From: Escherichia coli
GTDB lineage: Bacteria > Pseudomonadota > Gammaproteobacteria > Enterobacterales > Enterobacteriaceae
Reading direction: 5' to 3' (one strand)
Assembly: GCF_041886205.1 (NCBI RefSeq)
Contig: NZ_CP169029.1
Length of the DNA: 64,000 nt
Shown here: positions 2,545-28,113 of the stretch, piece after piece
Numbering within the stretch: position 1 is the first letter of the stretch
Layout: each line of letters opens with the position of its first letter
The notes under the pieces: model-generated
Databases searched by the model: none
What the model was told of the DNA's origin: nothing
What the model saw: only the letters and a program-made list of their open reading frames with translations
Position numbers and translations under genes: made by a program

Positions 2545-3189
2545 GTGCGATATGACGAAGAATTAATGGAGAATGTGATGATCAGGCAGAAGATTCTACA
2601 GCAGCTCCTGGAGTGGATTGAGTGCAATCTTGAGCACCCTATTTCAATCGAAGATATCGCACAGAAATCTGGCTACAGCAGACGCAACATCCAGCTTCTG
2701 TTCCGAAATTTCATGCATGTGCCTTTGGGAGAATACATTCGCAAACGAAGGCTTTGTCGTGCCGCCATTCTTGTCCGGCTCACCGCAAAATCTATGCTTG
2801 ATATTGCACTCTTTTTGCATTTTGATTCACAGCAGTCATTCAGCCGCGAATTTAAAAAGTTATTCGGCTGCTCTCCCCGTGAATACCGCCACCGTGATTA
2901 TTGGGATCTCGCAAATATCTTCCCTTCTTTTTTAATACGTCAACAGCAAAAGACGGAGTGTAGATTAGTCAACTTTCCTGAGACACCTATTTTTGGCAAT
3001 TCATTTAAATATGATATTGAAGTGTCGAATAAATCACCGGATGAAGAAGTCAAACTGCGACGTCATCATTTAGCCAGATGTATGAATAATTTTAAGACGG
3101 ATATCTATTTCGTCTCCACGTTTGAACCGTCAACAAAATCGGTCGATTTGCTCACGGTTGAAACTTTTGCCGGTACGGTATGCAGGTGA
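2545..3189 (+). CDS. AraC/XylS-family transcriptional regulator, 3'-truncated by IS1 (stop codon supplied by the IS1 left end)
   Basis: N-terminal HTH region (IEDIAQKSGYSRRNIQLLFRNF...SQQSFSREFKKLFGCSPREYR); the ORF ends at TGA 3187-3189, which lies inside the IS1 terminal sequence GGTGATGCTGCC starting at 3185. Possibly the ykgA-type regulator; not confirmed. Confidence 0.7.
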   Translation: MRYDEELMENVMIRQKILQQLLEWIECNLEHPISIEDIAQKSGYSRRNIQLLFRNFMHVPLGEYIRKRRLCRAAILVRLTAKSMLDIALFLHFDSQQSFSREFKKLFGCSPREYRHRDYWDLANIFPSFLIRQQQKTECRLVNFPETPIFGNSFKYDIEVSNKSPDEEVKLRRHHLARCMNNFKTDIYFVSTFEPSTKSVDLLTVETFAGTVCR

Positions 3190-3239
3190 TGCTGCCAACT
3201 TACTGATTTAGTGTATGATGGTGTTTTTGAGGTGCTCCA

Positions 3240-3515
3240 GTGGCTTCTGTTTCTATCAGCTGTCCCTCCTGTTCAGCTACTGACGGGGTGGTGCGTAACG
3301 GCAAAAGCACCGCCGGACATCAGCGCTATCTCTGCTCTCACTGCCGTAAAACATGGCAACTGCAGTTCACTTACACCGCTTCTCAACCCGGTACGCACCA
3401 GAAAATCATTGATATGGCCATGAATGGCGTTGGATGCCGGGCAACCGCCCGCATTATGGGCGTTGGCCTCAACACGATTTTCCGCCATTTAAAAAACTCA
3501 GGCCGCAGTCGGTAA
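3240..3515 (+). CDS. insA: IS1 InsA (transposition regulator/DNA-binding)
   Basis: 91 aa [43 protein letters not shown]... matches IS1 InsA. Confidence 0.92.
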
Positions 3516-3937
3516 CCTCGCGCATACAGCCGGGCAGTGACGTCATCGTCTGCGCGGAAATGGACGAACAGTGGGGCTATGTCGGGGCTAAATCGCGCCA
3601 GCGCTGGCTGTTTTACGCGTATGACAGGCTCCGGAAGACGGTTGTTGCGCACGTATTCGGTGAACGCACTATGGCGACGCTGGGGCGTCTTATGAGCCTG
3701 CTGTCACCCTTTGACGTGGTGATATGGATGACGGATGGCTGGCCGCTGTATGAATCCCGCCTGAAGGGAAAGCTGCACGTAATCAGCAAGCGATATACGC
3801 AGCGAATTGAGCGGCATAACCTGAATCTGAGACAGCACCTGGCACGGCTGGGACGGAAGTCGCTGTCGTTCTCAAAATCGGTGGAGCTGCATGACAAAGT
3901 CATCGGGCATTATCTGAACATAAAACACTATCAATAA
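3434..3937 (+). CDS. insB: IS1 InsB (transposase catalytic part, normally expressed as InsAB' by frameshifting)
   Basis: 167 aa ORF overlapping the insA 3' end in another frame; sequence ...[21 protein letters not shown]...MTDGWPLYE... typical of InsB. Confidence 0.88.
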
Positions 3938-4004
3938 GTTGGAGTCATTACCAACGATCAAATTCAAACCAGCATGAAACTTTATTAAGCGTATAACCCC
4001 ATCT

Positions 4005-11912: not shown

Positions 11913-13370
11913 GTGTCTGAACTGTCTCAATTATCTCCACAGCCGCTGTGGGATATTTTTGCCAAAATCTGTTCTATTCCTCACCCGTCCTATCATGAAG
12001 AGCAACTCGCTGAATACATTGTTGGTTGGGCAAAAGAGAAAGGTTTCCATGTCGAACGCGATCAGGTAGGTAATATCCTGATTCGTAAACCTGCTACCGC
12101 AGGTATGGAAAATCGTAAACCGGTCGTCTTACAGGCCCACCTCGATATGGTGCCGCAGAAAAATAACGACACCGTGCATGACTTCACGAAAGATCCTATC
12201 CAGCCTTATATTGATGGCGAATGGGTTAAAGCGCGCGGCACCACGCTGGGTGCGGATAACGGCATTGGTATGGCCTCTGCGCTGGCGGTTCTGGCTGACG
12301 AAAACGTGGTTCACGGCCCGCTGGAAGTGCTGCTGACCATGACCGAAGAAGCCGGTATGGACGGTGCGTTCGGCTTACAGAGCAACTGGTTGCAGGCTGA
12401 TATTCTGATTAACACCGACTCCGAAGAAGAAGGTGAAATCTACATGGGTTGCGCGGGGGGTATCGACTTCACCTCCAACCTGCATTTAGATCGTGAAGAG
12501 GTTCCAGCTGGTTTTGAAACCTTCAAGTTAACCTTAAAAGGTCTGAAAGGCGGTCACTCCGGCGGTGAAATCCACGTTGGCCTGGGTAATGCCAACAAAC
12601 TGCTGGTGCGCTTCCTGGCGGGTCATGCAGAAGAACTGGACCTGCGTCTTATTGATTTCAACGGCGGCACACTGCGTAACGCCATCCCGCGTGAAGCCTT
12701 TGCGACCATTGCTGTTGCAGCTGATAAAGTCGACGCCCTGAAATCTCTGGTGAATACCTATCAGGACATCCTGAAAAACGAGCTGGCAGAGAAAGAGAAG
12801 AATCTGGCCTTGTTGCTGGACTCTGTAGCGAACGATAAAGCTGCTCTGATTGCGAAATCTCGCGATACCTTTATTCGTCTGCTGAACGCCACCCCGAACG
12901 GTGTGATCCGCAACTCCGACGTGGCAAAAGGTGTGGTCGAAACCTCCCTGAACGTCGGTGTGGTGACCATGACTGACAATAACGTAGAAATTCACTGCCT
13001 GATCCGTTCTCTGATCGACAGCGGTAAAGACTACGTGGTGAGCATGCTGGATTCGCTGGGTAAACTGGCTGGCGCGAAAACCGAAGCGAAAGGCGCATAT
13101 CCTGGCTGGCAGCCGGACGCTAATTCTCCGGTGATGCATCTGGTACGTGAAACCTATCAGCGTCTGTTCAACAAGACGCCGAACATCCAGATTATCCACG
13201 CGGGCCTGGAATGTGGTCTGTTCAAAAAACCGTATCCGGAAATGGACATGGTTTCTATCGGGCCAACAATCACCGGTCCACACTCTCCGGATGAGCAAGT
13301 TCACATCGAAAGCGTAGGTCATTACTGGACACTGCTGACTGAACTGCTGAAAGAAATTCCGGCGAAGTAA
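11913..13370 (+). CDS. pepD: Cytosol non-specific dipeptidase (aminoacyl-histidine dipeptidase), M20 family
   Basis: GTG start; 485 aa MSELSQLSPQPLWDIFAKICSIPHPSYHEEQLAEYIVGWAKEKGFHVERD... Confidence 0.95.
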   Translation: MSELSQLSPQPLWDIFAKICSIPHPSYHEEQLAEYIVGWAKEKGFHVERDQVGNILIRKPATAGMENRKPVVLQAHLDMVPQKNNDTVHDFTKDPIQPYIDGEWVKARGTTLGADNGIGMASALAVLADENVVHGPLEVLLTMTEEAGMDGAFGLQSNWLQADILINTDSEEEGEIYMGCAGGIDFTSNLHLDREEVPAGFETFKLTLKGLKGGHSGGEIHVGLGNANKLLVRFLAGHAEELDLRLIDFNGGTLRNAIPREAFATIAVAADKVDALKSLVNTYQDILKNELAEKEKNLALLLDSVANDKAALIAKSRDTFIRLLNATPNGVIRNSDVAKGVVETSLNVGVVTMTDNNVEIHCLIRSLIDSGKDYVVSMLDSLGKLAGAKTEAKGAYPGWQPDANSPVMHLVRETYQRLFNKTPNIQIIHAGLECGLFKKPYPEMDMVSIGPTITGPHSPDEQVHIESVGHYWTLLTELLKEIPAK

Positions 13371-13382
13371 TTATTTGATTTG

Positions 13383-13414
13383 CTGCCGGATGGCGTTTAA
13401 TCGCCTTCCGGCAG
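13383..13414. terminator. Putative bidirectional terminator between convergent pepD and prfH
   Basis: Imperfect inverted repeat CTGCCGGATGGCG...CGCCTTCCGGCAG in the 56-bp gap. Confidence 0.4.
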
Positions 13415-13426
13415 TTTCATCCTTCA

Positions 13427-14041
13427 TTATCCTTCGATAAAAGCCATCCCTGTAAATGTCCGTCTCGGGTTGCCACGTTCAATCTGGTGATGGAACATTC
13501 GCCGCTGCGATTTCAGCACCGCGCTATTTTCCTGTTGCTGCTGCTCCAGCTTCCAGGCAATCAGCAATCGTGCCAGCCGCTTGTTAGCATGCTGACTACG
13601 CTCTGACTGAACCTTCACGCTAATACCGGATGCCAAATGCGTGGCGCGTACCGCCGAGTCGGTTTTATTGACATGTTGACCGCCCGGCCCCGACGAACGC
13701 AACGTCTCATAACGGATTGCATCCGATTGTTCCTGCTCATCAGCGGTAAAACGCCCAATGCCCAGAAACCAGTTTTTGCGCCCATGATGAGGCCGATACG
13801 GACTCGGACAAATCCACTGAATAGTGCCGCACCAACTTTCGCTTAATGCCCATGCGTTATCGCCATCCAGAGAAACCAGCGCTGAACGCAGCGTGTCAGA
13901 GTAGCGGCCCGTTTCGGTTTCCAGCACCGTTACCGCGACGTCTTGTCGGGCAGCTTCTTTAATTAGCCTGTCCAGCGCCTTTTTCACTGCGAGACAACAT
14001 TCTTCCGGCCCCTGCGCTGAGGAGAGTTGAAGCAAGATCAT
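13427..14041 (-). CDS. prfH: Peptide chain release factor homologue PrfH (RF-H), apparently full length
   Basis: Product from [16 protein letters not shown]... with the GGQ motif ([16 protein letters not shown]) of class-I release factors, about 204 aa; start ATG overlaps the upstream rtcB stop (ATGA at 14038-14041). Confidence 0.85.
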
Positions 14042-15204
14042 CCTTTTTTCCCTCCACTGTTTTTGAGCGTTAGCACCGGACGCAGCCGCGCGACAGGAAT
14101 AATTAAACCGGCCTGCACCAGACATTGCACCACGCTTTCAGCCGATTTATAGGCTTGTGGCGCTTCTTCAAAGATGAGTTGTTTATCGCGACAAATTACC
14201 CGACTGCCAAGTTCAGTACGCGAGAGTTGCGTCGCTGTGTATTTCGCTGCCAGACGCCCTTTACACTCGGTGCGCCCCCATTTACGCCCAGCCCCATGCG
14301 CCAGCGAGTGGAGCGTTTTTTCATTCGCAACAGGCTGTACAAGCCAGGAGTAATCACCGCGTGAACCGGGAATAATCACCAGACCGTTGTCATCCGGCGT
14401 GGCACCTTTACGATGCAACCAGCCCTGTTGATCGCCGATTTGACAGGCGCTAACAAAGTTATGCGCCACATCCAGAACCGGACTTCCGATAGCCTTAACT
14501 TGTTGCATTATGCGTAAAGCGATCAGCTGGCGATTAATACGCGCAAACGCCAGCGCATCGTCATGTTCCGCAATATACCGTAGCGTGTCGTCACTGCCTT
14601 CAGGCAAACCATGATGCGAAAACGAGGCAATATGCCGCTGTAAAATAGACTGCCCCAACCCCCGCGAGCCGCTATGAACCAACAGTTGCAGATGTTGTGC
14701 ATCCAGACCTGCCAGTGCAAACTGTTCAGCGTTGATGATTTGATCAACTTGTTGCAGTTCAGCGAAATGATTGCCGCCACCGATAGAGCCAAGCGAGCTG
14801 CGCCACGGATGCTGTGCAAATGCTGACGGCAGGTTTTCCTCCAGCCAGCTTTCTTCAGCAACGTCATCCAGATCTGATAATCGCTTTTCAAACTTATCGG
14901 CGTTGTATTTGCGAGCGAGAATATCTGTTTGCCATAGCGCCATGCCGCAGCCGATATCATTGCCGACCAGTGCCGGATAAAAACGGCCTGCGGAGAAGAA
15001 CGCTGCGCCAATCGGATAGCCGCGTCCGGGATGTAAATCTGGCATCCCCACTACGCGCTGCATGTTGGGTAAATTTGCCGTGGTGTGTAATTGTAGGATC
15101 GCTAAACTCTCGATCCACAGGTCATCAGATGCGATGGTAAATACCGCATCGGATAAGGGACGAATATAATTGCCCATATACCATTCCGTAAATAGACTCG
15201 TCAT
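14038..15204 (-). CDS. rtcB: RtcB-family RNA ligase paralogue (RtcB2-type; ykfJ position), apparently intact
   Basis: 388 aa with RtcB hallmarks (...[10 protein letters not shown]..., ...[13 protein letters not shown]..., ...[12 protein letters not shown]...); translationally coupled to prfH. Confidence 0.85.
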
Positions 15205-15422
15205 ACTTCAAGTTGCATGTGCTGCGACTTGAATTATTGAGAGTAACAATTAAAAAATCAGGAAATGGCAGACGAATCCAGGGCAAGAAAAAAAGAATTA
15301 ATCCTGGAAAGGTCTGCAAAGAGTCATTGATAAAGGATTTGTCATGATTTACCTCCTTGCAGTTTGTGGAATAAGAAAACGCGCACATATTAGGCGGGCG
15401 TTATTTTCATTGCAAGCTGGAT

Positions 15423-15875
15423 TTAATGTTGCGGTTTATAACGCATATAAAAATTAATAAACCACGCTCCCCGGCATTCAACGCGCTGCTGCTTAACTGT
15501 CTGAAAACCATAACGTTCAAAAAAGGGTTTTGCGGTTATGCTGGCGTCCACCGTAAGTTCGGATTCAGACTTAATCAAAGGTTTTAACAAAGCGCTGGCA
15601 ACCCCACGGCGGGTGTATTCAGGGTCAACAAATAACATATCGATATAATGTTCAATGCGGGAAATAAAACCAACCGGTTGTGCATTAATGACCGCAACCC
15701 ACACTTGTGATTTCGCGAGTTTCTCCTTCCAGCAAGATTCGTCAATCTGCGCCCAGGCGGCAATTTGTTGTGGAGAATAGTGCTGACTGGCGGTCATCGT
15801 AACCGCTCTAATAAAAATAGCGCATAGTTGCTGAAAATCGCCAGGCTGATAGTTTCTTATTTGTATGTTATTCAT
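15423..15875 (-). CDS. yafP: GNAT-family N-acetyltransferase YafP
   Basis: 150 aa [25 protein letters not shown]...; start overlaps the dinB stop by 4 bp. Confidence 0.85.
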
Positions 15876-16927
15876 AATCCCAGCACCAGTTGTCTTTCCA
15901 TTTGAGGGTCAAGCAACGTCACATGCAGCCCCACCAGTCGCACACCGCGCCCACCGCGGCGTTCATCCCAGGTTTTACGCGCGGTGGCGATTAAGTCAGC
16001 TTTATTCAGCCGCGGCCAGACATGCTCCTGGGTGGTTTGCTGAAAATCGTCGAACTTTAATTTCACCCCCTGGCGAGCAATCAGTAAATCAGGTTTTACC
16101 TTTGCCAGACGGCGTTCAAGTTCCGGATACAGCCGCTCGATAATCGCTTCACATTCAGACCAGTGATGAATATCTTCCGCCATCGTGCGTTCCACGCCGA
16201 CGGATTTTCGCAACCGTTCGCTGTTAACGTCGCGCTCGTCAATCCCCTGACTACGCTCCCACAAAATGCGGCCAAATTTGCCAAAGCGTTTAAGCAGCAT
16301 CACCAGATCACACTTTTGTACATCACCGCAGGTCCGCAGCCCCATCGCTTCCAGCTTCGCCGCTGAGACTTTGCCAACACCGGGAATTTTTGCCAGCGGT
16401 AAGGTTTGCAGAAATGCCGGAACTTCCGCCGGAGTAATCACAAACTGGCCGTTGGGTTTATTCATGTCGGAGGCGATTTTGGCGAGAAACTTTACTGGTG
16501 CCACGCCCGCAGACGCCGTCAGTTGTAGCTCGTTGAAAATCGTCTGGCGGATTTCCTGGGCGATGAGGGTCGCAGAACCGTGGCAATGGACGCTGTCGGT
16601 GACATCGAGATAGGCTTCATCCAGTGACAACGGTTCAATGCGCGAGGTGTAGCGCGAGAAGATTTCACGGATATGATTTGAGGCTTCTTTGTAGGCGTCA
16701 AAGCGCCCCGGAAGCAAGGTGAGATATGGGCATAATTTGAGCGCCATCCCTGTCGGCATAGCGCTACGTACGCCAAATTTACGCGCGGGGTAATTGGCGG
16801 TGCTGATCACCCCCCGACGTTCACGGCTGCCGCCAATAGCAATAGGGATATCGCGCAGGGCGGGATTGTCGCGCATCTCCACTGCGGCGAAAAAGCAGTC
16901 CATATCCACATGAATGATTTTACGCAT
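15872..16927 (-). CDS. dinB: DNA polymerase IV (Y-family translesion polymerase)
   Basis: 351 aa [58 protein letters not shown]... Confidence 0.95.
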
Positions 16928-16941
16928 TGCTCACCTCTCAA

Positions 16942-16961
16942 CACTGGTAAAGTATACAGTG
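16942..16961 (-). promoter_or_regulatory. LexA (SOS) box of the dinB promoter
   Basis: Reverse strand reads CACTGTATACTTTACCAGTG (CTGT-N8-ACAG consensus) about 15-35 bp upstream of the dinB start codon. Confidence 0.75.
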
Positions 16962-16997
16962 ATTTCAGGGTTTGAGAAATGCGTAAAGATTCAGCAT

Positions 16998-17690
16998 TTA
17001 ACGCGTTCGCTGCGAAAGCACCTGCTGCTTATCCAGCTTTTGCACCAGCGGCTGCACCACCTTATCCCCATGCTGACCAAAGTATTGATACAGCGTATCG
17101 GACGCACTTTTGGTCAGCACCATAATCTCAATGCGTCGGTTGCCCGCGCTTTGCGGATTTTTGGAATCCAGCAGCATCTGGTCCGCCATCGCGCTCACCT
17201 GCATCACTTTATCTTCCGGCATTCCTGCCTCTTCCAGCACCCGACGAGCCGAAAGCGCGCGGTCACCCGAAAGGTTCCAGTTGTTGTAGATATTATTTTT
17301 GTAGGCCATCGCATCGGTATGCCCGGTAATAATAATTTTGTTATCGAGCGAGTCGAAAACTGGCGCGAGCTCCACCAGCAGCGTTTTAAAGAACGGCATA
17401 ATCTGCGCGCTACCGCGTTCGAACATATTGCGATTCTGGTCGTCTTTAATCAGCACGCGTAATCCCTGCGGGACAATCTCCATCTCCAGATTCGCTTCCA
17501 TATGCGCATCACGGGCAATGGTGTTGATACTGGTTGCCAGCTCGCCAAGCTCGGTGGCGGATTTCATCTTCAGCAGCGCCGTTTTCTCGTTGACGTCGCG
17601 CGCTTTTTTCTCCGTCTCTTCCGGCACCGCCACGGTGGCAGGTTTTGGCGGATGAGACGGGCTGATTTTATTTAACGGCGACAACCCGCC
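16998..17690 (-). pseudogene. lafU: lafU remnant: MotB-like lateral-flagellar motor protein lacking its N-terminal membrane segment (Flag-2 remnant)
   Basis: Translation carries the MotB/OmpA-like C-terminal domain (...NWNLSGDRALSARRVLEEAGMP...); the 5' part of the track ORF is antisense to lfhA and not credible coding sequence. Confidence 0.7.
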
Positions 17691-17759
17691 GCCATTGAAA
17701 ATCGACTGCCCGTGCAGCGCGGCGATAATGCTTTCACGCTCGGATTTACTGACGCTGTT

Positions 17760-19467
17760 GACAATCAACTTTATCGTCGTCACCAAAGGGGCCGAGCGTA
17801 TTTCCGAGGTTTCTGCCCGCTTTACCCTGGACGCGATGCCCGGTAAGCAGATGGCGATTGATGCCGATCTTAACGCCGGATTGATCAACCAGGCGCAGGC
17901 GCAATCCCGGCGTAAAGATGTTGCCAGCGAGGCCGATTTCTACGGCGCGATGGACGGGGCATCGAAGTTTGTGCGCGGAGACGCCATCGCCGGGATGATG
18001 ATTCTGGCGATCAACCTGATCGGCGGCGTCTGTATCGGCATCTTCAAATACAACCTGAGCGCCGACGCCGCCTTCCAGCAATACGTGCTGATGACCATCG
18101 GCGACGGCCTGGTGGCGCAGATCCCTTCCCTGCTGCTCTCCACCGCGGCGGCGATTATTGTCACCCGCGTCAGCGACAACGGCGATATTGCCCATGACGT
18201 GCGCCACCAGCTGCTGGCAAGCCCGTCGGTGCTCTACACCGCTACCGGGATTATGTTTGTGCTGGCGGTGGTGCCGGGGATGCCGCACCTGCCGTTTTTG
18301 CTGTTCAGCGCCCTGCTTGGCTTTACCGGCTGGCGGATGAGCAAGCGCCCACAGGCGGCGGAGGCGGAAGAGAAAAGCCTCGAAACGCTGACCCGCACCA
18401 TCACTGAAACCAGTGAGCAACAGGTCAGTTGGGAGACGATACCGCTGATCGAGCCCATCAGCTTAAGCCTGGGCTACAAGCTGGTAGCGCTGGTGGATAA
18501 AGCCCAGGGCAACCCGCTCACCCAGCGAATTCGCGGCGTGCGGCAGGTGATTTCTGACGGTAACGGCGTGCTGCTGCCTGAGATCCGCATTCGGGAAAAC
18601 TTCCGCCTCAAGCCCAGCCAGTACGCTATTTTCATCAACGGCATTAAGGCTGATGAAGCGGATATTCCGGCGGATAAACTGATGGCCCTGCCCTCCAGCG
18701 AAACCTACGGCGAGATTGACGGCGTGCTGGGGAACGACCCGGCGTACGGAATGCCGGTCACCTGGATCCAGCCCGCACAGAAAGCGAAGGCGCTGAATAT
18801 GGGGTATCAGGTGATCGACAGCGCCAGCGTGATTGCCACGCATGTGAATAAGATTGTGCGTAGCTATATTCCTGATTTATTTAACTATGACGATATTACG
18901 CAGTTGCATAACCGTTTGTCGTCGATGGCACCGCGCCTGGCGGAAGATTTAAGCGCGGCGCTGAATTACAGCCAGTTGCTGAAAGTGTACCGCGCGCTGC
19001 TGACCGAAGGCGTTTCCCTGCGCGATATCGTCACCATTGCCACCGTGCTGGTCGCCAGTAGCGCGGTGACCAAAGATCATATTCTGCTGGCAGCTGATGT
19101 GCGCCTGGCGCTGCGGCGAAGCATTACCCATCCGTTCGTTCGCAAGCAGGAGCTGACGGTGTATACGCTGAATAATGAGCTGGAAAATCTGCTGACCAAC
19201 GTGGTGAATCAGGCGCAACAGGGCGGGAAAGTGATGCTCGACAGCGTGCCGGTCGATCCGAATATGCTCAACCAGTTCCAGAGTACGATGCCGCAGGTAA
19301 AAGAGCAGATGAAAGCGGCGGGGAAAGATCCGGTGCTGCTGGTGCCGCCTCAGCTGCGCCCTTTGCTGGCGCGTTATGCAAGGTTGTTTGCGCCGGGGCT
19401 GCATGTGCTGTCGTATAACGAAGTGCCGGACGAGCTGGAGTTGAAGATAATGGGGGCGTTGATGTAA
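17760..19467 (+). pseudogene. lfhA: lfhA remnant: FlhA-family flagellar export protein lacking its N-terminal ~130 aa and promoter (Flag-2 remnant)
   Basis: Credible FlhA homology begins ...GAERISEVSARFTLDAMPGKQMAIDADLNAGLI... and runs to the stop at 19467; no FlhA N-terminus and no start context. Confidence 0.7.
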
Positions 19468-19479
19468 GTATCCGGCATT

Positions 19480-19784
<305 letters not shown>

Positions 19785-19790
<6 letters not shown>

Positions 19791-20282
19791 AATGATACGC
19801 TCGCCAGCATTTATATCCGTTACGTCCCCCGCCCAATCGATGGGATATAACCCTCGCGCGACATCGCGATGGAACGTTGAGAATGGCCAATCACTCACTT
19901 GCTTTACCCAACCATGCTTTACTGGATTTATATAAATATAATCAACATGATGCCTATAATCTTTGGTATTGCGGATGGCGTGCTCCCAAAAACGTGGTTG
20001 CCAGATATTTTTCAATCCACAAGCATGGGTAAATTGCTTTTTAATTTCCCGCCAGCGCGAGGAAAAATCATCATCGCCTTCAGGTAATGTCCAGATACAG
20101 TGCATATGCTCTGGCAAAACGACCCAGGCGTTGATTTCAAAAGGCCTGTCTCGCTTAACTTTAATAATGGCGTGACGGAGCATCTGGTACTGGGTGGTCA
20201 AGAGTTGGCTTCGACGATTGCGTAAATTCACCGTGAAAAACCAGGTTCCCCCCTTGATGTAATAACGACGATATTCAGACAT
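19785..20282 (-). CDS. rayT: REP-associated tyrosine transposase (RayT/TnpA-REP)
   Basis: 165 aa MSEYRRYYIKGGTWFFTVNLRNRR...; IS200/IS605-like HUH fold (...HMHCIW...); flanked on both sides by REP elements. Confidence 0.85.
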
Positions 20283-20372
20283 GGCGACTCCTTTTTCTCA
20301 ACGGTAAGAAGAAAAGGAAAGGTCGGTAATGAGGTGATGGAATAACAGGAAAGCGGCTCGCAAAAACGCACA

Positions 20373-21216
<844 letters not shown>

Positions 21217-21507
21217 AAACCGGCTGAATGAAGGTGAGAATTTTAAAAGACCGGAGGAGTAAACGGGATTATTAATTGCTTATTTGCATATTACTATTGA
21301 GGTTTCATAATCTTAGGAAATAAATGATACATGCGCTTTTCGGACTATTGAAAACTGCCCCTGTGCTAAATTTGTAAACCCAGCGCCGACAGGCTTGCGT
21401 AAAACTCTTTTGGTGATAATGTGAGCCTTCCAAATCCAGACTATTCCGATTTGGGATCCATTTTGCCGTCCTGGCGTGTGTAACCGTTTTATCAAGGAAT
21501 AAGCAGT

Positions 21508-22248
21508 ATGCGTAAAATCGCATTAATTCTTGCGATGTTGTTGATCCCGTGCGTTTCGTTTGCCGGTTTGCTGGGCAGCAGTAGCTCGACCACGCCAGTG
21601 AGCAAAGAGTATAAGCAGCAGTTGATGGGATCCCCTGTCTACATCCAGATCTTCAAGGAAGAACGTACGCTCGATCTCTACGTCAAAATGGGCGAGCAAT
21701 ATCAACTGCTCGACAGCTATAAAATCTGTAAATATTCCGGCGGCTTAGGGCCAAAACAGCGTCAGGGCGATTTCAAAAGCCCGGAAGGGTTTTATAGCGT
21801 CCAGCGTAATCAGTTAAAACCAGACAGCCGTTACTACAAAGCGATTAATATTGGTTTCCCCAATGCCTATGACCGTGCGCATGGTTATGAAGGGAAATAC
21901 CTGATGATCCACGGCGATTGTGTTTCCATCGGCTGCTACGCAATGACCAATCAGGGTATTGATGAGATCTTCCAGTTCGTTACTGGTGCGCTGGTGTTTG
22001 GTCAGCCGAGCGTGCAAGTGAGTATTTACCCGTTCCGCATGACCGACGCCAATATGAAGCGCCATAAATATTCCAACTTTAAGGACTTCTGGGAGCAACT
22101 GAAGCCGGGTTACGACTACTTTGAGCAAACCCGTAAGCCACCGACCGTTTCTGTGGTCAATGGTCGTTACGTGGTCAGCAAGCCGTTAAGCCACGAAGTT
22201 GTGCAGCCACAACTGGCATCAAACTACACGCTCCCCGAGGCAAAATAA
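21508..22248 (+). CDS. yafK: L,D-transpeptidase-fold periplasmic protein YafK
   Basis: 246 aa with signal peptide [19 protein letters not shown] and YkuD-like core (...[15 protein letters not shown]...). Confidence 0.85.
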
Positions 22249-22986
22249 GCGCCATTCGCCTGGCATAATCTTTTGCCAGGTTTCATTGCCCGTCAGCGGC
22301 TGTGTTGCAATCACCGTGACCACATCATTCGGTGTGGTCTGCGAGCTGAAGTCGATTTCCACATCCTGATCCAGCAACGTTGCCACGCCAAACGGCGCGC
22401 GGCGGGTGATCCAGTGTAAATTAGTCGAGCAATACGCCATTACATAGCGCCCGTCAGAAAGCAGCATATTGAAAACGCCCTTCTGCCGCAGTTCATCCGC
22501 CAGTGAGGCGATATATTTAAACACTGCCGCCATGTTGCCCGGTGTACGCGGGTAACGCTGCGTTAATTTATGCAGCAGCCAGCAGAAGGCTTTTTCGCTG
22601 TCGGTTTCGCCTACCGGGCGGAAGTTGCCGGTTTCCAGTAATTTGTAGCCCGTCAGTTGTCCGTTATGGGCATAAGTCCAGTTACGCCCCCATAACTCGC
22701 GGGTAAATGGGTGAGTATTTTCCAGCGCCACCTCGCCCCGATTAGCCTGGCGAATATGAGCCACCACCGAACAGGATTTTATCGGGTAGTCCTGGACAAG
22801 TTTGGCGATGGGGGAATTAAAGCTGGGTTGTGGATCTTTAAATGTGCGACAGCCTTTACCTTCGTAAAAGGTAATGCCCCAGCCATCTTTATGTGGCCCG
22901 GTTCCACCACCACGCTGTACAAGTCCGGTGAAACTAAAGCAGATATCGGTAGGGACGTTGGCGCTCATCCCGAGCAATTCGCACAT
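22219..22986 (-). CDS. yafJ: Class-II glutamine amidotransferase-like protein YafJ
   Basis: Product from [19 protein letters not shown]... (N-terminal nucleophile Cys after Met); 3' end overlaps the 3' end of convergent yafK. Confidence 0.8.
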
Positions 22987-23049
22987 GGGTAACCTCCACA
23001 ACAGCGGGAGCGCATGGCCCCCGGCGAAGATTGATTTAAGAATTTTCAG

Positions 23050-23191
<142 letters not shown>

Positions 23192-23195
<4 letters not shown>

Positions 23196-23770
23196 TTAAC
23201 CATCTCTTTTTCAATTAACTGGATCAGGATATGGATCACTTTAATGTGAATCTCCTGAATGCGGTCGGCATAACCAAAGTGCGGTACGCGAATTTCGATA
23301 TCCGCCGTGCCAGCCATTTTGCCGCCGTCTTTACCGGTCAGGGTGATCACTTTCATCCCCTTCTCACGCGCCGCTGCGATCGCTTTGATCACGTTTGCAG
23401 AGTTACCGGAGGTGGAGATCCCCAGCAGTACATCGCCTTCGCGACCTACCGCTTCAACGTAGCGGGAGAAAATATCATTGAAACCGAAATCATTACCGAC
23501 GCAGGAAATATGACTAACGTCAGAAATAGCAATCGCCGGGTAGCCCGGACGGTTTTCACGGTAGCGACCGGTCAACTCTTCGGCAAAGTGCATAGCGTCG
23601 CAATGGGAACCGCCGTTGCCGCAGGAAAGCACTTTGCCACCGGCTTTAAAGCTGTCTGCTAACAGGACCGCCGCGCGCTGAATGGCGTGAATATTGGCGT
23701 CATCTTTTAAAAAGTTAGCCAGCGTTTCCGCCGCTTCGTTCAGTTCGTTACGAATAAGATCCTGGTACAT
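23192..23770 (-). CDS. gmhA: Phosphoheptose isomerase (sedoheptulose-7-phosphate isomerase)
   Basis: 192 aa [66 protein letters not shown]... (SIS domain). Confidence 0.95.
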
Positions 23771-24009
23771 GAGGATATCCTTCAGCATAAATGTAATAGA
23801 CAAAATGCAGTGTACCGGATACCGCCAAAAGCGAGAAGTACGGGCAGGTGCTATGACCAGGACTTTTTGACCTGAAGTGCGGATAAAAACAGCAACAATG
23901 TGAGCTTTGTTGTAATTATATTGTAAACACATTGCTAAATGTTTTTACATCCACTACAACCATATCATCACAAGTGGTCAGACCTCCTACAAGTAAGGGG
24001 CTTTTCGTT

Positions 24010-26454
24010 ATGATGATTTTGAGTATTCTCGCTACGGTTGTCCTGCTCGGCGCGTTGTTCTATCACCGCGTGAGCTTATTTATCAGCAGTCTGATTTTGC
24101 TCGCCTGGACAGCCGCCCTCGGCGTTGCTGGTCTGTGGTCGGCGTGGGTACTGGTGCCTCTGGCCATTATCCTCGTGCCATTTAACTTTGCGCCTATGCG
24201 TAAGTCGATGATTTCCGCGCCGGTATTTCGCGGTTTCCGTAAGGTGATGCCGCCGATGTCGCGCACTGAGAAAGAAGCGATTAATGCGGGCACCACCTGG
24301 TGGGAGGGCGACTTGTTCCAGGGCAAGCCGGACTGGAAAAAGCTGCATAACTATCCGCAGCCGCGCCTGACCGCCGAAGAGCAAGCGTTTCTCGACGGCC
24401 CGGTAGAAGAAGCCTGCCGGATGGCGAATGATTTCCAGATTACTCATGAGCTGGCGGATCTGCCGCCGGAGTTGTGGGCGTACCTTAAAGAGCATCGCTT
24501 CTTCGCGATGATTATCAAAAAAGAGTACGGCGGACTGGAGTTCTCAGCTTATGCCCAGTCTCGCGTGCTGCAAAAACTCTCCGGCGTGAGCGGGATCCTG
24601 GCGATTACCGTCGGCGTGCCGAACTCATTAGGCCCGGGCGAACTGTTGCAACATTACGGCACTGACGAGCAGAAAGATCACTATCTGCCGCGTCTGGCGC
24701 GTGGTCAGGAGATCCCCTGCTTTGCACTGACCAGCCCGGAAGCGGGTTCCGATGCGGGCGCGATTCCGGACACCGGGATTGTCTGCATGGGCGAATGGCA
24801 GGGCCAGCAGGTGCTGGGGATGCGTCTGACCTGGAACAAACGCTACATTACGCTGGCACCGATTGCGACCGTGCTTGGGCTGGCGTTTAAACTCTCCGAC
24901 CCGGAAAAATTACTCGGCGGTGCAGAAGATTTAGGCATTACCTGTGCGCTGATCCCAACCACCACGCCGGGCGTGGAAATTGGTCGTCGCCACTTCCCGC
25001 TGAACGTACCGTTCCAGAACGGACCGACGCGCGGTAAAGATGTCTTCGTGCCGATCGATTACATCATCGGCGGGCCGAAAATGGCCGGGCAAGGCTGGCG
25101 GATGCTGGTGGAGTGCCTCTCGGTAGGCCGCGGCATCACCCTGCCTTCCAACTCAACCGGCGGCGTGAAATCGGTAGCGCTGGCAACCGGCGCGTATGCT
25201 CACATTCGCCGTCAGTTCAAAATCTCTATTGGTAAGATGGAAGGGATTGAAGAGCCGCTGGCGCGTATTGCCGGTAATGCCTACGTGATGGATGCTGCGG
25301 CATCGCTGATTACCTACGGCATTATGCTCGGCGAAAAACCTGCCGTGCTGTCGGCTATCGTTAAGTATCACTGTACCCACCGCGGGCAGCAGTCGATTAT
25401 TGATGCGATGGATATTACCGGCGGTAAAGGCATTATGCTCGGGCAAAGCAACTTCCTGGCGCGTGCTTACCAGGGCGCACCGATTGCCATCACCGTTGAA
25501 GGGGCTAACATTCTGACCCGCAGCATGATGATCTTCGGACAAGGAGCGATTCGTTGCCATCCGTACGTGCTGGAAGAGATGGAAGCGGCGAAGAACAATG
25601 ACGTCAACGCGTTCGATAAACTGTTGTTCAAACATATCGGTCACGTCGGTAGCAACAAAGTTCGCAGCTTCTGGCTGGGCCTGACGCGCGGTTTAACCAG
25701 CAGCACGCCAACCGGCGATGCCACTAAACGCTACTATCAGCACCTGAACCGCCTGAGCGCCAACCTCGCCCTGCTTTCTGATGTCTCGATGGCTGTGCTG
25801 GGCGGCAGCCTGAAACGTCGCGAGCGCATCTCGGCCCGTCTGGGGGATATTTTAAGCCAGCTCTACCTCGCCTCTGCCGTGCTGAAGCGTTATGACGACG
25901 AAGGCCGTAATGAAGCCGACCTGCCGCTGGTGCACTGGGGCGTACAAGATGCGCTGTATCAGGCTGAACAGGCGATGGATGATTTACTGCAAAACTTCCC
26001 GAACCGCGTGGTTGCCGGGCTGCTGAATGTGGTGATCTTCCCGACCGGACGTCATTATCTGGCACCTTCTGACAAGCTGGATCATAAAGTGGCGAAGATT
26101 TTACAAGTGCCGAACGCCACCCGTTCCCGCATTGGTCGCGGTCAGTACCTGACGCCGAGCGAGCATAATCCGGTTGGCTTGCTGGAAGAGGCGCTGGTGG
26201 ATGTGATTGCCGCCGACCCAATTCATCAGCGGATCTGTAAAGAGCTGGGTAAAAACCTGCCGTTTACCCGTCTGGATGAACTGGCGCACAACGCGCTGGT
26301 GAAGGGGCTGATTGATAAAGATGAAGCCGCTATTCTGGTGAAAGCTGAAGAAAGCCGTCTGCGCAGTATTAACGTTGATGACTTTGATCCGGAAGAGCTG
26401 GCGACGAAGCCGGTAAAGTTGCCGGAGAAAGTGCGGAAAGTTGAAGCCGCGTAA
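24010..26454 (+). CDS. fadE: Acyl-CoA dehydrogenase FadE
   Basis: 814 aa from [22 protein letters not shown]...; continuous reading frame with acyl-CoA dehydrogenase core. Confidence 0.95.
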
Positions 26455-26463
26455 ATGAATAAC

Positions 26464-26489
26464 GGAGCCGAAAGGCTCCGTTTCTTTAT
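26464..26489. terminator. Bidirectional rho-independent terminator between convergent fadE and ivy
   Basis: GGAGCCGAAAGGCTCC hairpin followed by a T-rich run (TTTCTTTAT). Confidence 0.6.
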
Positions 26490-26496
26490 CCGCTAA

Positions 26497-26970
26497 TTAT
26501 TTAAAATTAAAGCCATCCGGATGGTTTTCCAGGCTGCCGGTCAACGCCGCGAACAACACCGTTTTACCATCAATCGAAAGCGCATCGTTCACATTCAGCC
26601 AGGTGAGTTTCTCTTGCGACGTTTTCTCATCAATAGTCGAGAACAGCCCCGTCATCTGATTAGATTTCTCGGACCACATCACAGCGATACGTTGCGAGCC
26701 ACAGTCATGCGGTTTGCACGCGCTCATCACCTGATACGTCTCATCTCCCAACGTTACGGTTTGTGCGGGAGTATAAGTACCGCCTTTCATCACCCAGGCA
26801 GGCAGCTTATGCCCTTGTACCATCTGATTAAATGCAGCTTTGGTGGTTTCGCCCTTTGCAAGGCTGCTAATGGTTAAATCATCCTGCGCCATTGCACTGG
26901 TGGCGATGACCAGAGCGGCGACTGTCGTTATTGCCTTAAACATCATTCCTCCCGAGCTTATCCTGCCCAT
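26497..26970 (-). CDS. ivy: Inhibitor of vertebrate lysozyme (periplasmic)
   Basis: 157 aa with signal peptide (...MMFKAITTVAALVIATSAMAQDD...) and the conserved CKPHDCG motif. Confidence 0.85.
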   Translation of the reverse strand: MGRISSGGMMFKAITTVAALVIATSAMAQDDLTISSLAKGETTKAAFNQMVQGHKLPAWVMKGGTYTPAQTVTLGDETYQVMSACKPHDCGSQRIAVMWSEKSNQMTGLFSTIDEKTSQEKLTWLNVNDALSIDGKTVLFAALTGSLENHPDGFNFK

Positions 26971-27123
26971 GTTATTAACCTCCTAAAGCCTGGCGATAAC
27001 ACGATAATTTGCAAATCAGATATTTCCAATATCAGCATTTGTTATCAATTTATTCTGCGCTAAGGCAACTGCCTGATAAGGTGTTAAAGTTATAAAACCC
27101 TTCGCATAAAGGAGTTGTACACC

Positions 27124-27891
27124 GTGCCTGGTTTGAAGATTACGCTTTTGCAGCAACCACTGGTGTGGATGGATGGTCCTGCCAACCTGCGTCATTTTGA
27201 TCGTCAACTGGAAGGTATTACCGGGCGCGATGTGATCGTTCTACCGGAGATGTTTACCAGCGGCTTTGCCATGGAAGCGGCAGCTTCGTCGCTAGCACAA
27301 GATGACGTAGTGAACTGGATGACAGCTAAGGCGCAGCAGTGCAATGCGCTGATTGCAGGCAGTGTTGCATTACAAACGGAGTCTGGTTCGGTTAACCGCT
27401 TTTTGCTGGTTGAGCCGGGCGGCACGGTACATTTTTATGATAAGCGTCATCTGTTCCGCATGGCAGATGAGCATCTACATTATAAAGCGGGCAATGCGCG
27501 AGTGATTGTGGAATGGCGCGGCTGGCGTATTTTGCCGCTGGTGTGCTACGACTTACGTTTTCCTGTGTGGTCGCGCAATCTCAACGATTATGACCTCGCC
27601 CTGTACGTCGCCAACTGGCCTGCTCCGCGCTCTCTGCACTGGCAGGCATTGCTGACGGCCCGCGCGATTGAGAATCAGGCGTATGTGGCGGGATGCAATC
27701 GCGTCGGCAGCGATGGCAACGGCTGCCATTATCGCGGTGACAGCCGGGTGATTAATCCACAAGGCGAGATTATCGCTACTGCCGACGCGCATCAGGCAAC
27801 GCGCATTGATGCCGAGCTGTCGATGGCGGTGTTAAGGGAATATCGCGATAAGTTTCCGGCATGGCGGGATGCGGATGAGTTTAGGTTGTAG
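27124..27891 (+). CDS. yafV: Nitrilase-superfamily omega-amidase YafV
   Basis: Carbon-nitrogen hydrolase catalytic-triad context (...EMFTSGF..., ...KRHLF..., ...LVCYDLRFP...); probable GTG start at 27124. Confidence 0.85.
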   Translation: MPGLKITLLQQPLVWMDGPANLRHFDRQLEGITGRDVIVLPEMFTSGFAMEAAASSLAQDDVVNWMTAKAQQCNALIAGSVALQTESGSVNRFLLVEPGGTVHFYDKRHLFRMADEHLHYKAGNARVIVEWRGWRILPLVCYDLRFPVWSRNLNDYDLALYVANWPAPRSLHWQALLTARAIENQAYVAGCNRVGSDGNGCHYRGDSRVINPQGEIIATADAHQATRIDAELSMAVLREYRDKFPAWRDADEFRL

Positions 27892-28113
27892 TGAGTGGGG
27901 GCTGTATTTAGGGCGGGGAATTCAGAAAGGGATGTTTAGTGTGCTGAGCGAGAGTTAAATAATAAAAAACTGGAAGATTTAATAATCCCCCCGCAGGGCA
28001 AGAGCATGAATTAAATTTGTGTTAAATTTTTCATTTTATCAGTTCGAAACCCAAGCTCTGAGCAGGATGCAAGCACTTCTTCTATATAACATGTGTTTAA
28101 CGCCAGGGCAAGA

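What the first reader, a model, noticed from the sequence alone, without database searches (positions are those of the whole stretch)
21217..21507. yafL-yafK intergenic region is only ~290 bp; dinJ-yafQ toxin-antitoxin pair absent
Only short, non-conserved-looking ORFs occur between yafL and yafK. As I recall, K-12 carries the dinJ-yafQ pair at this position. Together with the missing yafNO, this strain lacks two toxin-antitoxin modules in a 6-kb stretch, consistent with such modules being accessory insertions.
Basis: partly seen in the sequence, partly recalled or inferred. Interest (0 to 1): 0.35.

Follow-up and report, generated by a model that had tools for sequence, protein, structure and literature searches.

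The report
Ancestral toxin-antitoxin-free yafL–dpaA spacer
This E. coli strain has never carried the dinJ-yafQ toxin-antitoxin pair between yafL and yafK/dpaA: it keeps the original short spacer, a common and already published variant found in about 38% of complete E. coli genomes.

Summary
yafL (20458-21216, minus strand) and yafK/dpaA (21508-22248, plus strand) are separated by exactly 291 bp. DinJ, YafQ, YafN and YafO give no meaningful match anywhere in the window.

The window carries the ancestral state. Its whole spacer is collinear with E. albertii and two other divergent Escherichia lineages, and its dpaA-proximal part matches Citrobacter. None of these has dinJ-yafQ at this site.

K-12 differs by a sharply bounded replacement, not a plain insertion. 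A 222-bp ancestral block (window 21146-21367) holds the yafL promoter region and signal-peptide codons. In K-12 an 830-bp block takes its place. That block carries dinJ-yafQ, a LexA box and a very divergent yafL 5' end. The mature YafL sequence and the 140-bp dpaA promoter/leader, which is conserved across Enterobacteriaceae, are untouched.

Of 5,426 complete E. coli genomes, 2,084 carry the window-type block and 3,342 the K-12 block.

The yafNO site is a precise empty site. The dinB stop overlaps the yafP start in one copy of ATTATGA, and this 7-mer flanks the 759 extra bp in K-12. yafNO is present in 2,847 of 5,426 genomes.

Both polymorphisms are published, so interest is low. The co-replacement of the yafL signal peptide is a small new detail.

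The parts
20458..21216 (-). yafL, encoding an NlpC/P60 (C40) peptidase of 252 aa. The mature part is 217/224 aa identical to K-12 YafL.
   Evidence: ORF list; NlpC/P60 family hits; same annotation in the near-identical genome; mature-part identity.
21146..21367 (.). Ancestral-type block of 222 bp that K-12 lacks. It comprises the first 71 nt of yafL (signal peptide MSFMSSFLLGRFLHPGVFSLCVLLPLF) and 151 bp of yafL upstream sequence. In K-12 an 830-bp block containing dinJ-yafQ takes its place.
   Evidence: Pairwise alignment with K-12. Present in 2,084/5,426 E. coli genomes. Block identity is 76-82% to E. albertii and other divergent Escherichia and 91.8% to a B2 strain; it is absent from K-12, O157 and MOD1-EC7003. 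The signal peptide resembles those of the outgroups.
21268..21294 (-). AT-rich motif 52-78 nt upstream of the yafL ATG (yafL sense: GTAATATGCAAATAAGCAATTAATAAT). A related motif, TTAAT..TAATAAT..ATTAA, sits at the aligned position upstream of yafL in the K-12 type and in Citrobacter/Phytobacter. It is probably a yafL promoter or operator element; this function is inferred.
   Evidence: Alignment of yafL upstream regions; 48-bp match between the K-12 spacer and C. amalonaticus, 81% identity, E 2e-6.
21368..21507 (+). dpaA (yafK) promoter/leader block of 140 bp. It is shared by both haplotypes (139/140 identical to K-12) and conserved across Enterobacteriaceae. It contains TGTAAAC, a TTGCGT-N16-TGaTAATGT promoter-like pair, an imperfect hairpin (CCAAATC..GATTTGG) followed by a T-rich run, and the AAGGA ribosome-binding site. 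The dinJ-yafQ block in K-12 ends exactly at its upstream edge.
   Evidence: 99.3% to K-12. Conservation profile over 81 loci begins at 21369. 26-genus alignment A3. The promoter reading is my inference from the sequence. The hairpin has only weak support.
21508..22248 (+). dpaA (yafK/ldtF), peptidoglycan meso-diaminopimelic acid protein amidase.
   Evidence: NF040599, 428 bits, above the cut-off.
15872..15878 (-). Precise empty site for yafNO. A single ATTATGA holds the overlapping dinB stop (TGA) and yafP start (ATG). In K-12 this 7-mer occurs on both sides of 759 extra bp carrying yafN-yafO.
   Evidence: blastn junction analysis and printed junction sequences.
15423..16927 (-). Undisturbed dinB-yafP bicistron (dinB 15872-16927, yafP 15423-15875), with a LexA-box-like CTGGTAAAGTATACAG at 16944 upstream of dinB.
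   Evidence: NCBIfam PRK02406 and PRK09831, both above cut-off; LexA pattern.

Best explanation
The interval is the original, toxin-antitoxin-free divergent promoter region between yafL and dpaA (yafK), inherited vertically from the Escherichia ancestor. It has two parts. The yafL-proximal part (21217-21367, plus the yafL signal-peptide codons 21146-21216) is specific to this haplotype. A 140-bp dpaA promoter/leader (21368-21507) is conserved across Enterobacteriaceae. The K-12 arrangement arose instead in another E. coli lineage, apparently once, because the junctions are identical in K-12, O157 and a cryptic Escherichia lineage. In that event an 830-bp block replaced the 222-bp ancestral block. 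The incoming block carries a plasmid-related dinJ-yafQ cassette with its LexA-controlled promoter. It also carries a very divergent version of the yafL promoter and signal peptide. The replacement runs from the codon before the FASA|TT signal-peptidase site of YafL to the upstream edge of the dpaA promoter block, so mature YafL and dpaA regulation were spared. The nearby absence of yafNO is likewise the ancestral dinB-yafP bicistron. Shown here: absence, junctions, population frequencies, outgroup states. Inferred: promoter assignments, a single origin, and import of the K-12 block from a divergent donor.
For: Absence and coordinates. K-12 order. Junctions at window 21145/21146 and 21367/21368. 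The K-12 block is 830 bp with identical ends in O157 and Escherichia sp. MOD1-EC7003, where dinJ and yafQ are 98-99.6% identical. Outgroups: yafL lies next to dpaA without dinJ-yafQ in E. albertii, Escherichia sp. E1V33, strain SCPM-O-B-8794 and Citrobacter/Phytobacter; only K-12 and MOD1-EC7003 have the TA pair. The whole window spacer is collinear with the Escherichia outgroups, and block identity to them is 76-82%. The window-type YafL signal peptide (..GVFSLCVLLPLFASA) matches the outgroups (..GVFSL.LLLPLLASA), whereas the K-12 type occurs only with the TA pair. Population: 2,084/5,426 genomes have the window block and 3,342/5,426 the K-12 block, summing to 5,426. A real secondary loss looks different: in strain PSS-11 an IS1-associated deletion leaves a 44-bp yafQ remnant. 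Cassette relatives at about 68% nt identity sit on Enterobacteriaceae plasmids and cover only the dinJ promoter through yafQ. The LexA box is present in the K-12 block and absent from the window spacer. yafNO: single ATTATGA in the window against a flanking duplication in K-12; yafNO is in 2,847/5,426 genomes. Literature: yafQ-dinJ is present in the E/B1/A lineage and phylogroup F only (PMC6896753); dinB-yafP is an undisturbed bicistron where yafNO is absent (PMC7167474).
Against: I could not cross-tabulate genomes. Mutual exclusivity of the two blocks rests on the counts summing exactly to 5,426. Polarity rests on one genome per outgroup species. One non-coli Escherichia lineage (MOD1-EC7003) does carry the TA block, so the insertion is either old or has moved between lineages by recombination. 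The window is 99.25% identical to K-12 immediately right of the junction, yet the literature says the A/B1/E lineage always carries dinJ-yafQ. The phylogroup of this strain could not be determined from the window. A recombinational re-import of the ancestral allele into a TA-bearing background is therefore not excluded; this would still be inheritance of the ancestral allele, not a deletion.
Confidence: 0.9

Rival explanations
1. Secondary loss: the lineage once carried dinJ-yafQ (and yafNO) and deleted them cleanly.
For: About 62% of complete E. coli genomes carry dinJ-yafQ. The right flank of the window is 99.25% K-12-like. Deletions at this locus do occur, as in the PSS-11 IS1 deletion.
Against: The window holds 222 bp that TA-bearing genomes lack, and these are homologous to E. 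albertii, other divergent Escherichia and Citrobacter sequence. A deletion cannot recreate that sequence or the outgroup-type YafL signal peptide. There is no TA remnant. The documented deletion leaves a yafQ stub and an IS1.
Confidence: 0.03
2. Allelic re-replacement: an ancestor of this strain had the K-12 haplotype, then regained the ancestral TA-free allele by homologous recombination with a TA-free donor. One crossover would lie in the conserved dpaA leader.
For: Identity to K-12 switches from 99.25% (21368-27919) to 94-97% (15222-21143) exactly at the junction. The haplotype is mosaic among its nearest relatives: LHM10-1 is 99.6-100% identical from lfhA to fadE but only 96-98% in lafU-dinB-yafP.
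Against: yafL and the lfhA pseudogene are 5-9% diverged between all E. coli lineages compared, including K-12 against O157, which both carry the TA pair. The drop in identity is therefore a property of the locus, not of this strain. Mismatches within yafL show no gradient away from the junction.
Confidence: 0.15
3. The spacer hides another functional element in place of the TA pair, such as a small protein, an sRNA or a type I toxin.
For: Three ORFs of 46-72 aa lie in or across the gap. One sigma-70-like match on the plus strand lies at 21283-21311. The dpaA-proximal 140 bp is more conserved than the neighbouring coding sequence.
Against: The ORFs match no NCBIfam family and are truncated or lost in the outgroups. 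No Rfam family matches within 21217-21507 at E up to 1. Promoter-like matches are at the chance level (2 found, 1.3 expected). The conserved 140 bp reads as a promoter plus 5' leader directly abutting the dpaA start. RNAalifold finds almost no covariation (covariation term -0.22 kcal/mol), and the hairpin z-scores are ordinary (mostly about -1).
Confidence: 0.05

Closest known systems
dinJ-yafQ locus of E. coli K-12 MG1655 (b0226/b0225), between yafL and dpaA/yafK
   Same: Same chromosomal position and same flanking genes. The mature yafL, the 140-bp dpaA leader and dpaA are all shared.
   Different: The window has neither gene and no LexA box. It carries a 222-bp block in place of the 830-bp K-12 block, and its YafL has a different signal peptide.
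TA-free yafL-dpaA spacer of phylogroup B2 E. coli (e.g. strain 83972) and of E. albertii
   Same: Same architecture: yafL and dpaA diverge across about 300 bp with no TA pair. The block is 91.8% (B2) and 75.9% (E. albertii) identical.
   Different: The window allele lacks 11-12 bp that B2 and the outgroups have (222 against 233 bp). The B2 strain also lacks rayT.
dinB-yafP bicistronic operon of yafNO-free strains such as UTI89 (PMC7167474)
   Same: dinB and yafP are directly adjacent and overlapping, as described for strains without yafNO.
   Different: No difference of substance. Here the junction is resolved to a single ATTATGA that is duplicated around the K-12 insert.
Plasmid-borne RelB/DinJ-RelE/StbE cassettes on ~40-46 kb Enterobacteriaceae plasmids
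   Same: They are about 68% nt identical to the K-12 cassette, from 59 bp upstream of dinJ to near the end of yafQ. This is consistent with a mobile origin for the cassette that the window lacks.
   Different: They do not include the yafL-proximal 228 bp of the K-12 block, and nothing in the window matches them.

Membership tests
dinJ-yafQ type II toxin-antitoxin module (RelB/DinJ antitoxin + RelE/YafQ toxin) | An antitoxin ORF homologous to DinJ | tested here: not met
   tblastn of K-12 DinJ against the whole window: best E 0.93, none in 21100-21520.
dinJ-yafQ type II toxin-antitoxin module (RelB/DinJ antitoxin + RelE/YafQ toxin) | A toxin ORF homologous to YafQ immediately downstream | tested here: not met
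   tblastn of K-12 YafQ: best E 0.53 elsewhere; a 12-aa chance hit at 21328-21363 has E 29.
dinJ-yafQ type II toxin-antitoxin module (RelB/DinJ antitoxin + RelE/YafQ toxin) | Autoregulated promoter with a LexA box upstream of the antitoxin | tested here: not met
   CTG-N10-CAG occurs at L001:6520 in K-12 but nowhere in window 21100-21560.
Ancestral (never occupied) site of a TA insertion | Collinear with outgroup species across the whole interval | tested here: met
   Alignment A2 with E. albertii, E1V33 and SCPM-O-B-8794; the dpaA-proximal part also aligns with Citrobacter. Locus maps.
Ancestral (never occupied) site of a TA insertion | No remnant of the inserted element and both flanking genes intact | tested here: met
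Ancestral (never occupied) site of a TA insertion | Occupied and empty alleles differ only by the insert (a clean insertion) | tested here: not met
   At dinJ-yafQ the alleles differ by a 222-bp against 830-bp replacement that includes the yafL 5' end. At yafNO the criterion is met: 759 bp bounded by a 7-bp direct repeat.
Secondary deletion scar | Residual TA sequence, the K-12-type yafL 5' end, or an IS at the junction | tested here: not met
   None in the window. Strain PSS-11 shows the contrast: IS1 plus a 44-bp yafQ stub.
yafNO type II TA module in the dinB operon | yafN and yafO ORFs between dinB and yafP | tested here: not met
   dinB and yafP overlap by 4 bp; there is no YafN or YafO tblastn hit (best E 0.35, inside dinB, chance level).

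The most novel reading that the evidence does not exclude
dinJ-yafQ did not enter E. coli as a bare cassette. It came as part of an allelic replacement from a divergent, non-Escherichia-like donor in which the TA pair already lay beside yafL. The 830-bp block brought a xenologous yafL promoter and signal peptide. Its AT-rich upstream motif is closest to that of Citrobacter amalonaticus (48 bp, 81% identity). It also placed a LexA-controlled promoter back-to-back with yafL. E. coli would then segregate two YafL signal-peptide/promoter alleles in complete linkage with presence or absence of the TA pair, and yafL expression or export might differ between them.
Probability: 0.4. Interest if true: 0.3.

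Novelty: already known. Interest (0 to 1): 0.15.

Why it matters
The finding matters little in itself. The patchy distribution of dinJ-yafQ and yafNO among E. coli lineages is published, and about four in ten complete genomes share this state.

It has some practical value. TA-free natural alleles are the proper comparison for K-12 deletion strains such as the multi-TA knockouts, whose phenotypes have been blamed on polar effects on neighbours like yafK (PMC5120126).

The comparison made here indicates that dpaA/yafK has its own promoter/leader, conserved across the family, immediately downstream of the insertion point. It also shows that TA-bearing strains carry a different yafL promoter and signal peptide. 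Engineered 'clean' deletions of dinJ-yafQ therefore do not recreate the natural TA-free state.

Tried and rejected
- **Residual homology.** tblastn with word size 2 and blastn with word size 7 looked for dinJ, yafQ, yafN and yafO remnants. Only chance hits appeared.
- **Hidden genes.** The three short ORFs match no family and are not conserved.
- **Known RNAs.** An Rfam scan of 19500-23000 at E up to 1 found only REP-derived naRNA4 matches around rayT and nothing in the spacer.
- **A single recombination patch removing both TA pairs.** The sharp drop in identity to K-12 left of 21368 suggested this. It was rejected as a specific claim because yafL and lfhA are equally diverged between all lineages compared and mismatches show no gradient.
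- **Whether the K-12 yafL 5' end is unrelated DNA.** Global nucleotide similarity of the signal-peptide codons is marginal (89 of 2,000 shuffles reach it), and the upstream regions show none by simple local alignment. A multi-species alignment then revealed a shared AT-rich motif at the same position. I now read the K-12 5' end as a very divergent homologue.
- **Donor search.** No full-length K-12 block was found on genuine plasmids. It occurs only on F-primes and misassigned chromosomal pieces. No non-Escherichia locus among the 80 fetched has dinJ-yafQ beside dpaA.
- **Structured RNA in the conserved dpaA leader.** RNAalifold gave a covariation term of -0.22 kcal/mol, and per-sequence hairpin z-scores were mostly about -1. 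This is not supported as a structured RNA.
- **Phylogroup of the window strain.** The Clermont marker genes are not in the window, so this could not be determined.

Full report
**Observation.** The window is E. coli chromosome in the reverse orientation relative to K-12.
- yafL lies at 20458-21216 on the minus strand, with NlpC/P60 hits.
- dpaA (yafK/ldtF) lies at 21508-22248 on the plus strand. It matches NF040599 at 428 bits against a cut-off of 365.
- Beyond dpaA come yafJ and gmhA. On the other side come rayT, an lfhA fragment, lafU, dinB and yafP.
- The yafL-dpaA gap is 21217-21507, exactly 291 bp. RefSeq annotates the same gap in a 99.8%-identical genome.
- tblastn of the four K-12 TA proteins against the whole window gave only chance-level hits, and blastn of the K-12 block against the spacer found nothing.
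- The 46-72 aa ORFs in the gap match no family and are truncated or missing in related species.

**Anatomy of the difference.** Aligning the window with K-12 shows two sharp junctions.
- On the dpaA side, homology resumes at window 21368, about 15 bp past the yafQ stop in K-12. From there the 140 bp up to the dpaA start are 139/140 identical.
- On the yafL side, homology ends at window 21145/21146. This lies inside yafL, one codon before the shared ...ASATTSH sequence.
- The window-specific block is 21146-21367, 222 bp: 71 nt of yafL plus 151 bp upstream.
- The K-12-specific block is 830 bp: 64 nt of yafL, a 209-bp spacer, dinJ, yafQ and 15 bp.
- The two YafL proteins therefore differ in their signal peptides. 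The window has MSFMSSFLLGRFLHPGVFSLCVLLPLFASA and K-12 has MSLPSIPSFVLSGLLLICLPFSSFASA.
- Both keep the same FASA|TT cleavage context, and the mature parts are 217/224 identical.
- The K-12 block carries the LexA box CTGTATATTTATTCAG upstream of dinJ. The window spacer has no CTG-N10-CAG.

**Which state is ancestral.** I scanned one genome per bacterial species with DpaA as the query, which returned 80 loci, and mapped the neighbouring genes.
- yafL sits next to dpaA without dinJ-yafQ in E. albertii, Escherichia sp. E1V33, the divergent strain SCPM-O-B-8794, and about ten Citrobacter and Phytobacter species.
- Most other Enterobacteriaceae lack yafL at this position.
- Apart from K-12, only Escherichia sp. 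MOD1-EC7003 has dinJ-yafQ there.
- The window spacer aligns with the Escherichia outgroups over its entire length, except for an 11-12-bp indel.
- The 222-bp block is 76-82% identical to the outgroups and 91.8% identical to a B2 strain. It has no counterpart in K-12, O157 or MOD1-EC7003.
- The window-type signal peptide (..GVFSLCVLLPLFASA) matches the outgroups (..GVFSL.LLLPLLASA; Citrobacter ..GLLSLCVV..). The K-12 type occurs only together with the TA pair.

The window therefore keeps the ancestral arrangement and K-12 carries a derived replacement. The block has identical ends in K-12, O157 and MOD1-EC7003, where dinJ and yafQ are 98-99.6% identical. This points to a single origin followed by spread.

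**What a true loss looks like.** In strain PSS-11 an IS1-associated deletion removes yafL through most of yafQ and leaves a 44-bp yafQ stub. The window shows nothing of that kind.

**Frequency.** Counts are out of 5,426 complete E. coli genomes.

| Block | Genomes | Detail |
|---|---|---|
| Window-type 222-bp block | 2,084 | 615 at 99% or more; 1,231 at 90-95% (the B2-type allele with the extra 11 bp) |
| K-12 830-bp block | 3,342 | 3,321 with near-full coverage |
| yafNO | 2,847 | |

The first two counts sum exactly to 5,426, consistent with two mutually exclusive alleles. I could not cross-tabulate genomes. Many genomes match window 15300-23000 as one uninterrupted 7,701-bp piece, so they lack both TA modules.

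The literature already reports this. yafQ-dinJ is present throughout the E/B1/A lineage and in phylogroup F only (PMC6896753). dinB-yafP is an undisturbed bicistron in strains without yafNO (PMC7167474). Both papers cite earlier surveys by Fiedoruk et al. 2015 and by Ramisetty and Santhosh 2016.

**The yafNO site.** In the window the dinB stop and the yafP start overlap within a single ATTATGA (15872-15878). K-12 has 759 extra bp bounded on both sides by this 7-mer. This is a precise empty site.

**What the 291 bp contain.** The dpaA-proximal 140 bp (21368-21507) are conserved in all 81 Enterobacteriaceae loci examined. Conservation begins abruptly at 21369, exactly at the K-12 insertion boundary. 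From the sequence I read the following elements; their functions are inferred.
- An invariant TGTAAAC.
- A TTGCGT/TTGCGA-N16-TG-n-TAATGT promoter-like pair.
- An imperfect hairpin followed by a T-rich run.
- An AAGGA ribosome-binding site.

RNAalifold found almost no covariation and the hairpin is not unusually stable. I treat this part as a promoter plus leader, not as a structured RNA. No Rfam family matches it. Because dpaA is transcribed divergently from yafL in every TA-free genome, it must have its own promoter here. This qualifies the statement in PMC5120126 that yafK has no promoter and is probably co-transcribed with dinJ-yafQ.

The yafL-proximal part contains an AT-rich motif (window 21268-21294). 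A related motif recurs at the aligned position upstream of yafL in the K-12 type and in Citrobacter/Phytobacter.

**Origin of the K-12 block.**
- Only the cassette proper, from the dinJ promoter to near the end of yafQ, has plasmid relatives. These are about 68% identical and sit on roughly 40-46 kb Enterobacteriaceae plasmids.
- The yafL-proximal 270 bp of the block is not unrelated DNA. It shares the AT-rich motif.
- Over 48 bp it is 81% identical to the region upstream of C. amalonaticus yafL (E 2e-6). That is closer than it is to the window type.
- Mature yafL in K-12 is ordinary Escherichia sequence.

My inference, at about 0.4 probability, is that the block entered by allelic replacement from a divergent donor that already had dinJ-yafQ beside yafL. 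No such donor was found among the 80 loci.

**An idea considered and dropped.** The window is 99.25% identical to K-12 right of the junction but only 94-97% left of it. This suggested a single recombination patch that removed both TA pairs. However, yafL and the lfhA pseudogene are 5-9% diverged between all lineages compared, including K-12 against O157, and there is no gradient of mismatches within yafL. The pattern is a property of the locus. Re-import of the ancestral allele into a K-12-like background remains possible, at about 0.15.

**Verdict.** The region is the ancestral, TA-free yafL-dpaA divergent promoter region, and the absence of yafNO is likewise ancestral. The variation is common and published, so novelty is 'already known' and interest is low. 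The one modest addition is that the dinJ-yafQ polymorphism is a block replacement. It also exchanges the yafL promoter and signal peptide, and it stops exactly at a dpaA promoter/leader conserved across the family.

Noticed in passing
window 21368-21507: The 140 bp upstream of dpaA are more conserved across 81 Enterobacteriaceae loci than the adjacent coding sequence. They show an invariant TGTAAAC, a promoter-like TTGCGA-N16-TGcTAATGT, a recurring imperfect hairpin plus T-run, and a conserved GCCGTCCTGGC. No Rfam family matches, covariation is negligible, and the regulator is unknown.
   Followed up: partly
window 20458-21140 (yafL) and 17695-19467 (lfhA fragment): yafL and the lfhA pseudogene fragment are unusually diverged within E. 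coli, 5-9% between lineages. That is nearly as much as between E. coli and E. albertii or the cryptic clades. Neighbouring dpaA-yafJ differ by only 1-3%. The cause is unexplained; it may be fast evolution, old alleles or inter-species recombination.
   Followed up: partly
window 19544-19802 and 20381-20458: REP-element arrays flank rayT (19785-20282, REP-associated tyrosine transposase) and match Rfam naRNA4 (RF02564, up to 79.5 bits). This is a typical REPtron. B2 strain 83972 lacks rayT here (L083).
   Followed up: no
L085:7316-7943 (E. coli O145 RM12522-C8): In this strain a hicA-hicB toxin-antitoxin pair occupies the position where the window has rayT, between the lfhA fragment and yafL. 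dinJ-yafQ and yafNO are absent. A third TA module can therefore sit in the same 6-kb neighbourhood.
   Followed up: no
window 13200-15204: rtcB (14038-15204, a full-length match to NF007153) and prfH appear intact in the window. K-12 has only the ykfJ and prfH pseudogene remnants and lacks about 1 kb (window 13950-14971). O157 also has degraded copies, so the TA-bearing genomes examined go with decayed rtcB-prfH.
   Followed up: partly
window 27919-59700: About 32 kb are absent from K-12, lying between yafV and the aspV/dnaQ side. In the near-identical strain wlxctx60 the start of this region is annotated as an IS256 fragment and a DUF6531 (Rhs-like) gene. It was not examined.
   Followed up: no
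window 3183-3952: An IS1 copy (99.2-99.3% identical to K-12 IS1 copies) lies in the region beyond thrW, where the window no longer matches K-12.
   Followed up: no
L089:3288-4066 (E. coli PSS-11): An IS1-associated deletion removes yafL, rayT, the lfhA fragment, dinJ and most of yafQ. It leaves a 44-bp yafQ 3' stub directly upstream of the intact dpaA leader, and yafNO is retained.
   Followed up: yes
L006:3014-3148 (Escherichia sp. MOD1-EC7003): In this TA-bearing cryptic lineage the K-12-type yafL start codon is ATA (..RISLPSIPSF..). The only in-frame ATG lies 18 codons upstream, so yafL may start elsewhere or be impaired.
   Followed up: no
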